Positions 4,201-10,200 of a stretch of DNA of 11,948 nucleotides are shown piece by piece. A program made the position numbers. Position 1 is the stretch's first letter; the number at the start of each line of letters is the position of its first letter. Where the stretch lies: IMG/VR virus record IMGVR_UViG_2645727867_000006; one strand, given 5' to 3'. The DNA is from a virus. Its lineage: Duplodnaviria > Heunggongvirae > Uroviricota > Caudoviricetes.

Positions 4201-7200
4201 TGCTGTATTTGCCGCCCGTATTCGTCAGGAGGTGCGCCATGTGCAATGACACCCGTCCTGACGCAGCCGCAGAAGCCATCAAAACGCTGATGCACGCGCT
4301 GATTGATATTTCTGTTATCGCAGACAAGGCACATAAGCACGCCACCAGCGAAACAGAATATATCGGGGCTTTCGTTCCTCACTTACTGGCTGTTATGCAA
4401 TTTAGTGCTGATATGGCGCTGAATGAGGACGGCAAAATTCTTACCGCAGATATTCAGGGAGTGCACCATGCATGATGACCGTTATTTTAAATCAATGAGC
4501 CATGCAGAAAATGCACTGACTAACAGTGAATGTTTGCGGCAAATATTGCTTATCTGGCTTGATGGTTTAAGTGATGCGCCGGAAGATGAACGTGAATCTA
4601 ATCTTGCTGGTGCGTTTATTTCATTACTCGATACGGTAATCGTCGAATTAAATAAAGCGATCGAAATTCACGATAAAAAAATAAACGCGGAATAAAAAAC
4701 ATGAAACAGAAAAATTCTGGCTTTACTGCCAGTGGCCCCGCTCGGCCTGAAAGCCGCCCCGGCGATATTTTCCGGGATAAATACGGAAGTCAGATAACGG
4801 TAAAAACGGTGAGTGCTTATCGGGTGACATATATCCGCGAAGGTTATGCGCATCCCTGCGTGTCGTCACATATGCGCTTTGAGAGTGAATTTACCCTGGT
4901 AAGCAAAGCACCACCAGCGGACTTAAGCGACATCGACAGAATCATGCGCATTACAGGTATGGAACGCATTAAGGCAGTACGTGAAATTATTCGTGAGCGG
5001 GGAAAGGCAAAATGAAACTGGCACCAAACGTAAAACTGTTACCGAAAGATAAAGGCGAGGATGCAGTGATTTTTGCAGGGGATGACGCATACAGCCATGT
5101 AGAGCATTACATGCAGGGCGGAGAAGCCAGAAAGCGCGGAGACAAAATACCACCTGTTTATCTCGGGCGGCGTGACCTGGGTAACCTGGAAAACCTGCGT
5201 ATTGTGGATGATGGTCGGTCACGCGCCATCGTCAGACGTGCCGGAAAACTGGATGACAAACTGGCGCTACAGATTGAAACCCTGCTGGCAGTGGCAGGTG
5301 TTAAGGAAGCCTGTTTTTGTGACGAGAACGGCGATTTACTGGAGGACTGGACGCCGCAGCTTGCCCGGCTGAAAGACGAATACGAGCGCGGGGAAAGTCT
5401 TGTGTTGCCCTTAAAGAAAAAAGCCACCACAAGCCCGGGTGATGATGAATTAAAGCCCCGCGTTGAAAGCCGCGCCGATGGTGTTTTCTGGGTAACGCCC
5501 AAAGTGGATAAGCAGTCAGGCGAAATTATCCGGCCTGAGACGTGGTTATGTTCCCCGCTTGAACTACTGGGAACGGGGACAATCGGCAAAGAGCATTACC
5601 GCGTGATGCGCTGGAAAAAACCAGCAAATCATGAAGTCATCACAATGGCGGTTCCGTGCGGTGGCATTGGCGACCGTGACGGCTGGCGGCTACTGAAAGA
5701 CCACGGACTGAACGTAACAACTAACGGCAAATACAGGGCTATCCTGGCTGACTGGATGCAGTTAAGCGGAAGCCATGAGGAATGGCAGTTAAGCACAACA
5801 ACGGGCTGGCATTTTGGCGCGTACATCATGCCGGACGGTTCGATCATTGGTGATTCTGAAAAACCGATCCTGTTTACCGGAAAAAGCGCCGCGATTAACG
5901 GTTATTCCGTGGCGGGTACGGCGGAGGGCTGGCGCGAGAGTGTGGCGCGACTGGCTGGCGGTAATGCCTCAATGATGCTGGGTGTGGCAACGTCACTGGC
6001 AGCGCCTTTAATTGGCCTTGTGGGTGCTGACGGCTTCGGGGTGCATCTTTTCGAACAGTCATCGGCAGGTAAGACCACCACGCAGAACATCGCATCAAGT
6101 TTATGGGGAGAGCCGGACGCGCAGCGGCTGACCTGGTACGGCACGGCGTTAGGTATTGCCAATGAGGCCGAGGCCCATAATGACGGGCTTTTACCACTGG
6201 ATGAGATAGGCCAGGCCGGAAATGCGCGGGAAGTGTCAACGTCTGCTTATACGCTGTTTAACGGTTCAGGGAAATTACAGGGGGCGAAGGACGGCGGCAA
6301 CAGGGAGATAAAACACTGGCGAACGGTGGCAATCAGCACCGGAGAAATGGACGTTGAAACGTTCCTCAAAACGGAGGGGATAAAGGTTAAGGCAGGACAG
6401 CTTGTCCGTCTGCTTAACGTGCCGATGGAAAAAGCCACGCAGTTTCACGAATACAGCACCGGAAAGGCGCACGCAGACGCGTTAAAAGATGCCTGGACAG
6501 AAAATCACGGGGCGGCGGGGCGTGAGTGGGTTAAATGGCTGGCAGACCACCAGCAGGAGACAAAGGACACGGTAAGGGCATGCCGTGAACGGTGGCGCAA
6601 CCTGATACCGGAGAGCTACGGCGAGCAGGTCCACCGCGTGGGTGAGCGTTTCGCCATACTGGAGGCCGCACTTGTGCTTTCCGGTCATGTGACTGGCTGG
6701 GATGAGCAGGAATGCCGTGATGCCATTCAGCATAATTTTAATGCCTGGGTGAAAGAGTTCGGTACGGGCAACAGGGAACACAGGCAGATTATTGAACAGG
6801 CTGAGGCGTTTCTTGCGGCCTATGGCCTGAGCAGGTTCGCCCCTGTCAATTATGACCCTGCCAGCCTGCCGATTTCAGAACTGTACGGCTACAGGGAAAG
6901 CGACGGGCGTTATGACGAGCCTGTTTTGTTTTACGTGCTGCCGGAGCCGTTTAGCTCACATGTGGCGAAGGGATTTAACAAGGATGCCGTAGCAAAGACC
7001 CTTCATGAAGCCGGAATGCTGAGAAAACCAGCCAGCGGGCGGGGATGGCAAATCAGGACACCACGACTAAAACACCTGAAAGGGGCGCGGCTAAGAGTGT
7101 ATGGCCTTTTGCTGACGCAGGACCACGATGCTGAAAATGATTAATCTCGCGTGTAGGAGGTAAAAATATGTTGTCCCAGTCGTCCCAGTAAGCAACAAGC

Positions 7201-10200
7201 AATCGTAACACATTGAATTACATAAATTTCACTTACAAAAAGTGGGACAACAGCGGGACAACATTCAGGCATTTTGGGACAACATAGCGGCATTTTGGGA
7301 CGACACGACACGTATTTTTTACCGTGCTGGAGGGTGGGACAACACAAAAACCCTCATGTCGTCCCAAAATCGCCTTATGTCGTCCCACTTTGTGGAGTAT
7401 GTTTTTAATAAAATCAACAGGTTAACATTAAGTGGGACAACCGGGACAACTGGGACGACGTGTTTTGTATATATACGAAAAAATCGAGATCTGAACTATG
7501 AAGTTAAACCGCAAACAACCACACTACCGCGCCATTGACCTTACAGAGCACTGGCTGAGAGTGGCGATAAAAATCATCGACCGCAACACGGTGGAAGGAT
7601 ACGCGAAAGCACATCCCGAACTGATAAGCGCATTCATGACCACAGCGGCGGCAAACTTTGCCACGCTGACAGAACGGGAGATTGCCGAAGCGGAACAGGT
7701 AACAACCATCAACGTAAAAACCGGAGAGTCAGGCGATGATACATGACCGCATAGCGGAGGAACTCGAGGCGAAAGGATTTTACCGGAGGGCGGCGGCGCG
7801 ATGGGGTGAAGTCATGCAGCTGGTGGAGACAGACAAGGAACGGCATCAGGTTACGATGCGACGGCTGGAATGTTCCAGGAAGGCACAGAGGCCACCGGAG
7901 CCGCCAACGGAGAACTATGCAGACCTGAGAAATGCAGTAAATCGCACTTACGCAGACATGGGGCTGAGCAAATTAGCAGAGTAGGAATACCAGAACCACA
8001 CCACACAGCCGGAGCAATCCGGCTTTTTTGCGCCCAAAAAAAGCCCGATAAGGTCAGAGGTGGCTTATCGGGCTTTTGCATATGAGGCTTTTTGGTGCAC
8101 TGACACACATGATCGGGATAATCATTTCATAATTTGCAATACAACTCAATATCATTGCACAAAATGCAATCATAATTATAATCATAACTGGATGAACATA
8201 CAGTTATGATTTTTTAAGTCAAAGAGGAATTTCTTACTATGGCTGAAGAGAAAAAAGGCGGTGTTTCGGTGTACATAAGCCCCGACATCGTGAAGGCGCT
8301 CAAGGAACGCCACCAGCAGAACGTAAAAGCAGGCATTGCGGCAGGACTTGATCCGCTGGCGATGGTTGAGCCGTCAACAGGCTGGCAGGTACGCGCCTAT
8401 TTACGCGCGGCGCTGGGTATGAATCAGGTTCACGGGGGTGAATAATGACAGGCAAAGCAACAGCACTTACCACTAATCAGCTTTTCACGTACCTGAATCG
8501 CGGGGATATTGCGGAATTTAAATTCAGTCCGCTGTTTACCACGCTGTTTTTCCCGAACGTGGCGACATTCAGCACCCAAAACATCATGCTGGATACCCTG
8601 GACATTGAAGAAGTCACCATGTCGGCGTTTTGTTCGCCTATGGTTGGCAGCCAGGTCCAGCGCGATAAAGGGTACGAAACCAGCACGATTAAACCAGGCT
8701 ACATGAAGCCAAAGCACGAAATCGATCCAACAAAAACCATCATGCGCATGGCTGGAGAAGATCCGGCACAGCTTAACGACCCTACCTACCGACGTATGCG
8801 CCTTATTACTGGCAACATGCGCCGCCAGATAAACGCCATTAAAGCGCGCGTGGAATGGCTGGCGGTGAATGCGATAACGACCGGAAAAAACATCATTGAG
8901 GGCGAAGGCATAGAACGCTATGAAATCGACTGGAAAATACCGGAAAACTGCATCATAGAGCAGGCCAAGGGTAAAAAATGGTCCGAGCATGATAAAGATA
9001 TTTACGATCCAATCTATGACATCGAACTATACGCAGATCAGGCAGGTTGCCCCGCCAACGTCATGATTATGGGCGCTGAGGTATGGCGCACGTTACGCAG
9101 CTTTAAAAAATTCCGCGAACTGTACGATCTTTCCCGTGGTTCAGAATCCGCCGCAGAACTGGCCTGTAAAAACCTGGGTGAAGTAGTGAGCTTTAAAGGC
9201 TATCTGGGCGATATTGCCCTTATCGTCTATTCCGGCAAATACACTGACAGCGACGGTACCGAAAAATATTTCCTTGAGCCTGATTTGCTGGTCCTGGGTA
9301 ACACCAACAACAAAGGGCTGGTGGCCTATGGTGCGATTATGGATCAGGAAGCTGTAAGAACAGGCGCAACGCAAAACATGTACTACCCGAAAAACTGGAT
9401 TGAGGACGGCGATCCGGCGATTGAGTACGTGCAGACGCACAGCGCACCGCAGCCGGTACCGGCAGACATTCGCAAATTTGTTACCGTCAAAATTGGTTAA
9501 CTGGGGATTCTATGAACACTCCATACATTGAGTTATTTGCAGGCAGTCAGCAGGTATCAACGACGCTGGTACATTTTGCCGCTGATGCTGGCTTTATTCA
9601 GGAATTTACCCCGCTGATGCTGTCAGACAATGGCGAGTTTAAGCCGTGGGATGGTCAGGAATCTGGCAAGGCTGTTTATCTGACTTCGTACCCCGTGGAC
9701 ACGTCGACGCAGAAATCAGCACAGTGTTACAAGACGGGGATATTTAATATCGCCGCCGTAAACTGGCCTGAGAGCGCCGACACTGACGCGAAAAAATGCG
9801 CCGCCTTTGCGGGTTCTGGCGTATCCGTTCAGCCGCTGGCGCGATAAGCAGGGGAAACGATGGCAACGAATGAAAGCATCATGGCGCTACCGCTGGCGAG
9901 TAAATTTAAAGCAGAAGCGCGGGCAATGGCTGACAGAGGTTTATCAACCTACGAGGCCGTATATCAACTCAACAAACTGGAAGAGCAGGACAAGCCGCGC
10001 GCTGATGCGATTATGGCGCTTCATGAACATAACGACTATCAGCCGCTGTTACGTGCAATGGCAAACGTGCCATGTATTAGCGTCGATAATGCTCGTGAAA
10101 TCCTGAACATGACCATAGAGCAGGAGCGCCCAAAGGTTGCGCCGGAGCTTACCGCAGCCTTTGAAAACTTTATGGACATGCACAGCCCGAAAGCCGTATC

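What the first reader, a model, noticed from the sequence alone, without database searches (positions are those of the whole stretch)
7170..7459. Dense bidirectional iteron array downstream of the primase/helicase gene: candidate origin
At least 12 copies of GGGAC(A/G)AC in both orientations, several as CATTTTGGGAC(A/G)AC at 21-bp (two-turn) spacing, flank an AT-rich tract directly after the replication gene. This is the classic arrangement of a Rep-binding origin; the same sequence could confer replicon specificity against co-resident satellites.
Basis: partly seen in the sequence, partly recalled or inferred. Interest (0 to 1): 0.55.

Follow-up and report, generated by a model that had tools for sequence, protein, structure and literature searches.

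The report
Replication origin of a phage satellite
The repeat cluster is almost certainly the replication origin of an E. coli phage-satellite island (a PICI), bound by the tail end of the replication protein encoded just upstream; this kind of origin is already known, so the finding is sound but ordinary.

Summary
GGGACRAC occurs exactly 12 times in the window, all within 7170-7459, against 0.73 expected. The array starts 26 nt after the stop codon of the DUF927 replication gene, and the sites sit at 9, 11 or 21-22 bp spacings around two AT-rich tracts.

In about 92 related loci the same site layout (modal pattern --+++++--+++) follows the rep gene. The 8-mer differs, falling into eight classes.

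Only the last ~80 residues of Rep change with the iteron class. Loci with 95-97% identical helicase cores, and near-identical neighbouring genes, carry TAACCCGC iterons and a tail only 31-33% identical. The downstream genes vary freely. Exact lambda-type cosN 12-mers lie elsewhere in the island.

So this is a Rep-specific iteron origin of the SaPI/PICI type. That type was already described for E. coli PICIs and tested for EcCICFT073 (PMC6092414). I rate it a new member of a known kind, with a rare specificity found in 24 of 5426 E. coli genomes.

- There are two AT-rich tracts, not one.
- Only two sites read CATTTTGGGACRAC.
- This Rep lacks the recognisable primase module.

The parts
5012..7144 (+). 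rep: DUF927 initiator-helicase, 710 aa. N-terminal domain aa 1-~140, helicase core ~141-600, C-terminal DNA-binding domain ~631-710.
6902..7141 (+). Rep C-terminal domain (aa 631-710), the inferred iteron-recognition module with a winged-helix-like fold.
7170..7186 (-). Left iteron pair (7170-7177, 7179-7186), 9-bp spacing, pointing away from AT tract 1.
   Evidence: The position (+28/+37 after the rep stop) is conserved in all classes.
7188..7243 (.). AT-rich tract 1 (71% AT), the candidate primary melting site.
   Evidence: The family-wide AT maximum (up to 83%) lies at +57..+90. This tract is retained in the 6-iteron short form of the origin.
7244..7304 (+). Four direct iterons (7244, 7255, 7276, 7297) at 11/21/21-bp spacing.
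   Evidence: Offsets +99/+110/+131/+152 are conserved across classes.
7336..7343 (+). Fifth direct iteron.
7358..7386 (-). Inverted iteron pair (7358-7365, 7379-7386) at 21-bp spacing. It forms a 34-nt imperfect inverted repeat with 7275-7308.
   Evidence: I1, 82% complementary.
7387..7433 (.). AT-rich tract 2 (74% AT), with an exact IHF-consensus match at 7412-7424.
   Evidence: The IHF consensus is present in 7 of 7 distinct oris of this iteron class, against 2.6% of shuffled regions.
7434..7459 (+). Right cluster of three direct iterons (7434, 7443, 7452) at 9-bp spacing. It forms a 27-nt imperfect inverted repeat with the left pair.
   Evidence: I3, arms 7163-7189 and 7440-7466.
7460..7497 (.). 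AT-rich tail (TATATATA, A6, one GATC) before the next ORF at 7498.

Best explanation
The 7170-7459 array is the vegetative replication origin of a Gram-negative PICI-type phage satellite.

Proposed mechanism:
1. After the island is induced, Rep (5012-7144) is made. It is a self-loading, MCM-like helicase related to SaPI Rep and SCCmec Cch.
2. Its C-terminal winged-helix-like domain recognises the ~9-bp iterons YGGGACRAC.
3. The iterons sit on one face of the helix (9/11/21-bp spacings), in clusters that point away from two AT-rich tracts.
4. Rep oligomers assembled on these clusters melt an AT tract. Tract 1 (7188-7243) is the more likely, because the unit of 2 inverted iterons, AT tract and 4 direct iterons is the conserved minimal core.
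5. Rep then loads itself as the replicative helicase.
6. The right half (1 direct, 2 inverted, AT tract 2 with an IHF-like site, 3 direct) is an optional second unit, perhaps for a second hexamer.

Because iteron and Rep tail change together, the origin fires only with its own Rep, which gives replicon specificity.

Shown here: the array, its conserved layout, its linkage to rep, covariation with the Rep tail, and Rep homology to SaPIbov1 Rep. Inferred: binding, melting site, stoichiometry and actual initiation.
For: - Enrichment: 12 sites against 0.73 expected, all within 290 bp starting 26 nt after the rep stop.
- Conserved layout: in loci from at least 12 enterobacterial genera plus IMG/VR contigs, the same offsets and orientation pattern follow rep. 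Modal copy numbers are 12 (29 oris) and 11 (20 oris) among 83 distinct oris. The 8-mer switches as a whole among GGGACAAC, GGGACAAG, GGGATAAG, GAACCAAC, GAACCACG, GAACCG.., TAACCCAC and TAACCCGC.
- Covariation: identity in the last 80 Rep residues predicts shared iteron class with AUC 0.97; the helicase core gives 0.74.
- Decoupling from everything else: TAACCCGC loci share 95-97% of the Rep core, up to 99% of the N-domain, 97% of orf7498, 95% of PerC and 95% of the capsid protein with the window, but only 31-33% of the tail. L012/L064 are mosaics, with a core like the GAACCAAC group and a window-like tail with GGGATAAG iterons.
- Downstream genes differ widely between loci that keep the array.
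- Rep is homologous to SaPIbov1 Rep and Cch. SaPI Rep binds iterons immediately 3' of its gene through a C-terminal winged helix, with iterons pointing in opposite directions on either side of an AT-rich region (PMC9371898).
- The same organisation was reported for E. coli PICIs, and a pri-rep-ori fragment of EcCICFT073 drove plasmid replication (PMC6092414).
- Within the GGGACAAC/GGGACAAG-class alignment (9 sequences), iteron columns are invariant more often than spacer columns (44% against 23%, Fisher p = 6e-4).
Against: - No experiment exists for this element or this Rep allele.
- EcCICFT073, the experimentally tested E. coli PICI, has a different helicase and tail (only the N-terminal ~160 aa are homologous) and different iterons. 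Its evidence is therefore analogical.
- The tail fold is only moderately supported. The domain-only model was poor (pLDDT 60) and gave no fold hits. The window's own tail has no Pfam hit.
- P4 shows that a Rep-binding array directly after the rep gene (crr) can be an auxiliary cis element rather than the initiation site.
- No DnaA box was found, and the melting site is not known.
Confidence: 0.85

Rival explanations
1. Rep does bind the array, but it acts as an auxiliary cis element, like P4 crr, or as a copy-control, handcuffing or autoregulatory site. Initiation happens elsewhere.
For: P4 crr lies directly after the alpha gene and carries 10 type-1 octamers in both orientations, while the P4 ori is 4.5 kb away. 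The array lies on the read-through path to the downstream operon, so bound Rep could also affect transcription.
Against: There is no second iteron cluster anywhere in the island, at 0 or 1 mismatch. AT-rich tracts flanked by divergent iterons are conserved across the family. The homologous SaPI system initiates at exactly this kind of site.
Confidence: 0.08
2. The repeats are operator sites for a transcription factor (AlpA, PerC or a helper-phage activator) that controls the downstream morphogenesis operon.
For: The array is intergenic, just upstream of orf7498-perC-capsid. Short inverted and direct repeats are also typical of operators.
Against: Downstream gene content varies widely while the array stays attached to rep. 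PerC, orf7498, DUF4222 and Ash are near-identical in loci with a different iteron class, so none of them can set the specificity. No sigma-70-like promoter was found in 7050-7600. Twelve sites spread over 290 bp around AT tracts is not an operator-like design.
Confidence: 0.03
3. The repeats are packaging recognition sites for the island's small-terminase-like protein (cosB- or pac-like).
For: The island encodes a TerS-like protein (10468-11022), and cosB regions do contain repeated binding sites.
Against: Exact lambda-type cosN 12-mers lie at 10335-10346 and 11202-11213, on either side of that gene and 3 kb from the array. Relatives with a quite different packaging module keep the same array layout, for example EcCIEDL933 with an HK97-type capsid and P27-family TerS. 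The iteron class does not track the capsid or packaging genes.
Confidence: 0.01

Closest known systems
SaPI / Gram-positive PICI Rep-ori (SaPIbov1, SaPI1, SaPI5)
   Different: The iterons here are 8-10 bp rather than 5-6 bp. The layout is a fixed bipartite 12-site design with two AT tracts. The host is Gram-negative and the island is transcribed in one direction. Rep carries an extra N-terminal domain.
E. coli PICI origins described by Fillol-Salom et al. 2018 (EcCICFT073 pri-rep-ori; PMC6092414)
   Same: The island gene order is the same: int, alpA-like HTH, icd-like, DUF4222, rep, ori, perC, capsid, decoration protein, TerS/Rpp-like gene, with cos sites. The origin lies 3' of rep with iteron sets around AT-rich DNA.
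   Different: EcCICFT073 Rep is a different allele of 584 aa annotated 'DNA primase family'. Only its N-terminal ~160 aa are homologous to the window's Rep (40% identity). Its iterons are CTGTCTACC. The experimental proof was therefore obtained on an analogous replicon, not an orthologous one.
EcCIEDL933 (capsid-forming PICI prototype) rep-ori
   Same: It has the same DUF927 Rep family (the rep core DNA is 94% identical to the window's) and the same 12-site layout.
   Different: It has a different Rep tail and TAACCCGC iterons, and a complete HK97-type capsid and terminase module.
Satellite phage P4 alpha protein with ori and crr
   Same: Octamer iterons in both orientations are bound by the C-terminal domain of a primase-helicase. 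The crr array lies directly after the alpha gene.
   Different: P4 is bipartite (ori plus crr, 4.5 kb apart), whereas this island has one cluster. The iteron is TGTTCACC. No similarity was detected between alpha and the Rep C-terminal profile (hhalign probability 0.1%), and alpha is a different helicase family.
Iteron plasmids (pSC101, R6K, F, RK2)
   Same: The general logic is shared: repeated initiator-binding sites next to an AT-rich unwinding element, with specificity and incompatibility set by iteron-Rep matching.
   Different: Those plasmids use 17-22 bp direct iterons, Rep_3-type initiators without helicase activity, DnaA boxes and host DnaB loading. None of these features is seen here.

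Membership tests
PICI/SaPI-type Rep-iteron origin | The origin lies immediately 3' of the rep (pri-rep) gene. | tested here: met
   The first iteron starts 26 nt after the rep stop. The same holds in about 92 relatives.
PICI/SaPI-type Rep-iteron origin | Multiple short iterons in sets flanking an AT-rich region, with at least two on each side pointing in opposite directions. | tested here: met
   Pattern --|AT|+++++--|AT|+++, with tracts of 71% and 74% AT.
PICI/SaPI-type Rep-iteron origin | The cognate initiator is a self-loading helicase of the SaPI Rep / Cch type. | tested here: met
   [not shown]
PICI/SaPI-type Rep-iteron origin | A C-terminal winged-helix domain of Rep recognises the iterons. 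| tested here: inconclusive
   [not shown]
PICI/SaPI-type Rep-iteron origin | Iteron sequence is matched to Rep specificity. | tested here: met
   Eight iteron classes. The Rep tail predicts the class with AUC 0.97, and no other protein segment covaries.
PICI/SaPI-type Rep-iteron origin | Rep plus ori are enough for autonomous replication. | not testable with these tools
   Shown only for EcCICFT073, which has a different Rep allele (PMC6092414).
Gram-negative PICI (element context) | int, alpA-type HTH, unidirectional genes, rep, perC or morphogenesis genes, cos; size 10-20 kb. | tested here: met
   The gene order matches EcCICFT073.
P4 ori/crr | Type-1 TGTTCACC iterons bound by the alpha protein. 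| tested here: not met
   The iteron is different. The Rep C-terminal profile shows no similarity to alpha.
P4 ori/crr | Bipartite cis elements (ori and crr) kilobases apart. | tested here: not met
   All 12 iterons lie in one 290-bp cluster, and one-mismatch sites elsewhere are at chance level.
Iteron-plasmid origins (Rep_3 type) | 17-22 bp direct iterons, DnaA boxes and a Rep_3-family initiator. | tested here: not met
   The iterons are 8-10 bp and in both orientations. There is no DnaA box at up to 1 mismatch. Rep is a DUF927 helicase. No plasmid homologue of the ori was found.

The most novel reading that the evidence does not exclude
The Rep tail and its iteron array behave as one exchangeable specificity cassette. 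It has been swapped repeatedly onto near-identical helicase cores (95-97% identical cores carry tails only 31-33% identical). This turnover could be driven by conflict: incompatibility between co-resident satellites, or helper-phage nucleases that target satellite origins, as ICP1 Odn targets the PLE origin. On this reading the conserved bipartite design of 6 + 6 sites with two AT tracts would load two hexamers at separate melting sites, and the 6-site short form would be a one-hexamer origin.
Probability: 0.15. Interest if true: 0.5.

Novelty: new member of a known kind. Interest (0 to 1): 0.25.

Why it matters
This locates the origin and the specificity determinant of a PICI replicon family found in about 14% of complete E. 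coli genomes (746 of 5426). The family includes the capsid-forming PICI prototype EcCIEDL933. The natural set of eight matched pairs of Rep tail and iteron on a common helicase scaffold is a ready-made system for studying how winged-helix initiators read DNA. It could also be used to build orthogonal satellite replicons. It does not change the current understanding of how satellites replicate.

Tried and rejected
- AF2 on the C-terminal 170 aa alone gave pLDDT 60, and Foldseek found nothing significant. The full-length model was used instead.
- An HMM of the C-terminal region (alignment A1) against PDB sequences gave no hit. hhalign of the same profile against P4 alpha showed no similarity. 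A P4 relationship was therefore rejected.
- Searching with the 140-aa C-terminal segment alone (aa 571-710) returned mostly fragments.
- The promoter scan of 7050-7600 found no sigma-70-like site.
- No DnaA box was found.
- The ori has no match in plasmids. The tail gave only two hits in the phage collection. The Klebsiella record was examined and holds a full-length Rep with its own GAACCAAC array; the other is an unannotated 2.2-kb record that was not examined. No tail-nuclease fusion like Odn was seen.
- The supplements of PMC6092414 do not contain the GGGACAAC iteron as text, and its Fig. 2a is not held. I could not tell whether this exact ori class was drawn there.
- The cf-PICI preprint does not discuss the ori.
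- The IHF site is not general across the family (15 of 82 oris), so it is not part of the core model.
- Co-residence of different iteron classes in one genome could not be tested, because only the best place per record is returned.
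Full report
**Observation**

The pattern GGGACRAC matches exactly 12 times on both strands of the 11,948-nt window. Every match lies between 7170 and 7459. Dinucleotide-preserving shuffles give 0.73 matches on average and never more than 3. Allowing one mismatch adds only four scattered sites, which is chance level, so the island has a single cluster.

The order and orientation of the sites are:
- 7170(-) and 7179(-)
- AT-rich tract 7188-7243 (71% AT)
- 7244(+), 7255(+), 7276(+), 7297(+), 7336(+)
- 7358(-) and 7379(-)
- AT-rich tract 7387-7433 (74% AT)
- 7434(+), 7443(+), 7452(+)
- AT-rich tail 7460-7497

Spacings within clusters are 9, 11, 21, 21, 22, 21, 9 and 9 bp. These are close to whole helical turns. 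The array starts 26 nt after the stop codon of ORF 5012-7144.

CATTTTGGGACRAC occurs twice, with a third site reading GATTTT. There are two internal AT tracts rather than one.

**Context**

The window is 100% identical to a chromosomal island of E. coli 94-3024 that interrupts caiT. Its genes run in one direction:
- integrase
- an AlpA-type HTH gene
- Ash, containing C4/isrK-type RNAs
- an Icd-like gene
- DUF4222
- the DUF927 Rep
- the repeat array
- a small ORF, then PerC
- a lambda-type major capsid protein, a decoration protein and a scaffold-like protein
- a TerS-like protein flanked by two exact cosN 12-mers

 This is the gene order of the Gram-negative PICI EcCICFT073.

**The replication protein**

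Rep matches Pfam DUF927. It is a homologue of the SaPIbov1 Rep initiator-helicase (PDB 8tch) and of the SCCmec Cch helicase (5dgk):
- phmmer E 2.7e-15 to 8tch
- Foldseek E 3e-13 and 2e-12

It has three modules.

The N-terminal ~140 aa have no Pfam family. In some relatives a Zn-ribbon plus Toprim primase module takes their place. The phrog 'DNA primase' match starts only at profile position 243. The 'primase' label is therefore doubtful for this allele.

The helicase core is highly conserved.

**Comparative test**

I collected 16 loci from reference genomes of other Enterobacterales and 80 from IMG/VR. About 92 were usable.

In essentially all of them, the ~320 nt after the rep stop carry an array with the same offsets and orientation pattern as the window. 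The modal pattern is --+++++--+++. Among 83 distinct origins, 29 have 12 copies and 20 have 11.

The repeated 8-mer differs between loci. All copies within a locus change together. The classes are GGGACAAC (9 loci, window included), GGGACAAG (1), GGGATAAG (1), GAACCAAC (38), GAACCACG (2), GAACCG.. (1), TAACCCAC (6) and TAACCCGC (34). A concerted switch of a dozen sites within a fixed scaffold points to one sequence-specific binder that differs between elements.

**Which protein covaries**

Identity over the last 80 Rep residues separates same-class from different-class pairs with AUC 0.97. The 300-aa helicase core gives only 0.74.

The clearest case is the TAACCCGC group, which includes the capsid-forming PICI prototype EcCIEDL933. 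The table shows identity to the window.

| Segment | Identity to window in TAACCCGC loci |
|---|---|
| Rep core | 95-97% |
| Rep N-domain | up to 99% |
| orf7498 | up to 97% |
| PerC | up to 95% |
| Capsid protein | up to 95% |
| DUF4222 | up to 90% |
| Rep C-terminal tail | 31-33% |

The converse also occurs. L064 has a core only about 77% identical to the window but a window-like tail (about 60%), and its iterons are GGGATAAG. L012 is a visible mosaic.

The gene downstream of the array varies widely. The GAACCAAC class alone shows at least 15 configurations. The array is therefore tied to rep, and specifically to the Rep tail. It is not tied to the downstream operon or to the packaging genes.

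**Mechanism**

The data fit the SaPI model. In that model the Rep C-terminal winged helix binds iterons located immediately downstream of rep. The iterons lie on both sides of an AT-rich region and point in opposite directions. Rep melts the origin and loads itself without ATP or accessory loaders (PMC9371898).

Fillol-Salom et al. reported the same organisation for several E. coli PICIs. They showed that an EcCICFT073 pri-rep-ori fragment supports plasmid replication, and that this requires both rep and ori (PMC6092414).

I infer that Rep oligomers assemble on the divergent clusters and open an AT tract. A short form of the origin, --++++, occurs in 17 loci. It keeps only the left pair, AT tract 1 and the four direct repeats. 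That unit, 7170-7304 in the window, is therefore the likely core, and the right half is an accessory second unit.

In the window's class, AT tract 2 carries an exact IHF consensus at 7412-7424. It is conserved in 7 of 7 distinct oris of the class, against 2.6% of shuffled regions. It is not general across the family.

**Rivals**

- A P4 crr-like auxiliary role cannot be excluded without experiments. However, there is no second iteron cluster in the island that could serve as the true origin.
- An operator role for the downstream operon is contradicted by the covariation table, by the variable downstream genes and by the absence of a promoter-like site.
- A packaging role is contradicted by the cosN sites that flank the TerS-like gene, and by relatives with unrelated packaging modules that keep the same array.

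**Comparison and novelty**

In kind, this is the known PICI/SaPI origin.

It is not orthologous to the experimentally tested EcCICFT073 origin. That Rep shares only the N-terminal ~160 aa with the window's Rep (40% identity), and its iterons are CTGTCTACC.

It is not a P4-type or plasmid-type origin. The iterons differ, the Rep C-terminal profile shows no similarity to alpha, there is no bipartite arrangement, there are no DnaA boxes, and no plasmid homologue exists.

The DUF927 Rep family occurs in 746 of 5426 complete E. coli genomes. The GGGACRAC origin occurs in only 24.

My verdict is a well-supported new member, with a rare specificity class, of a known kind. Interest is modest. The added value here is the family-wide evidence that tail and iterons form an exchangeable specificity cassette on a fixed 12-site scaffold.

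Noticed in passing
window 10335-10346 (+) and 11202-11213 (-): The exact lambda cosN 12-mer GGGCGGCGACCT occurs twice, in inverted orientation, on either side of the TerS-like gene (10468-11022). An exact 12-mer is expected about 0.001 times by chance. EcCICFT073 is reported to have cos1 and cos2 (supplement of PMC6092414). The meaning of the inverted second copy here is unexplained.
   Followed up: partly
window 3818-3894 and 3916-4003 (+), inside the Ash ORF 3689-4249: Rfam isrK (66 bits) and C4 antisense RNA (77.6 bits) match above their gathering scores. This points to a P4 CI-RNA/seqA-like RNA immunity module embedded in a Bro/Ash-type gene, as noted for Gram-negative PICIs in PMC10111431.
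   Followed up: no
[not shown]
   Followed up: partly
window 7412-7424: There is an exact IHF consensus (AATCAACAGGTTA) in AT tract 2. It is conserved at the same position in all 7 distinct origins of the GGGACAAC class, including the divergent ones, but is present in only 15 of 82 origins across the family.
   Followed up: yes
L021 and 16 other loci; L002 6136-6310: A short form of the origin occurs in many TAACCCGC-class islands and in the E. albertii relative. It has only the left six iterons (--++++) and one AT tract. This suggests that the right half is dispensable.
   Followed up: partly
window 1261-1284 and 2586-2629: There is a perfect 12-nt tandem duplication, GGTGTAGTCACT x2, at the caiT/island junction just before int. 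A 10/20-nt tandem repeat (ACAACGTGAA-like, 3.4 copies) lies in the AT-rich int-alpA intergenic region. These could be att/arm-type or regulator sites.
   Followed up: no
L101 (PQ569648.1, 'Klebsiella phage P12620-1', record positions 98633-101200): A 106-kb record deposited as a phage genome contains a full-length DUF927 Rep followed by an 11-copy GAACCAAC array of the same layout. The record may include a satellite or be a composite assembly.
   Followed up: partly
window 1-1293 and the L001 annotation: The island is inserted inside caiT, the carnitine antiporter gene, and splits it. In the RefSeq annotation the island's ash gene and one neighbouring ORF are marked as pseudogenes in strain 94-3024.
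   Followed up: no
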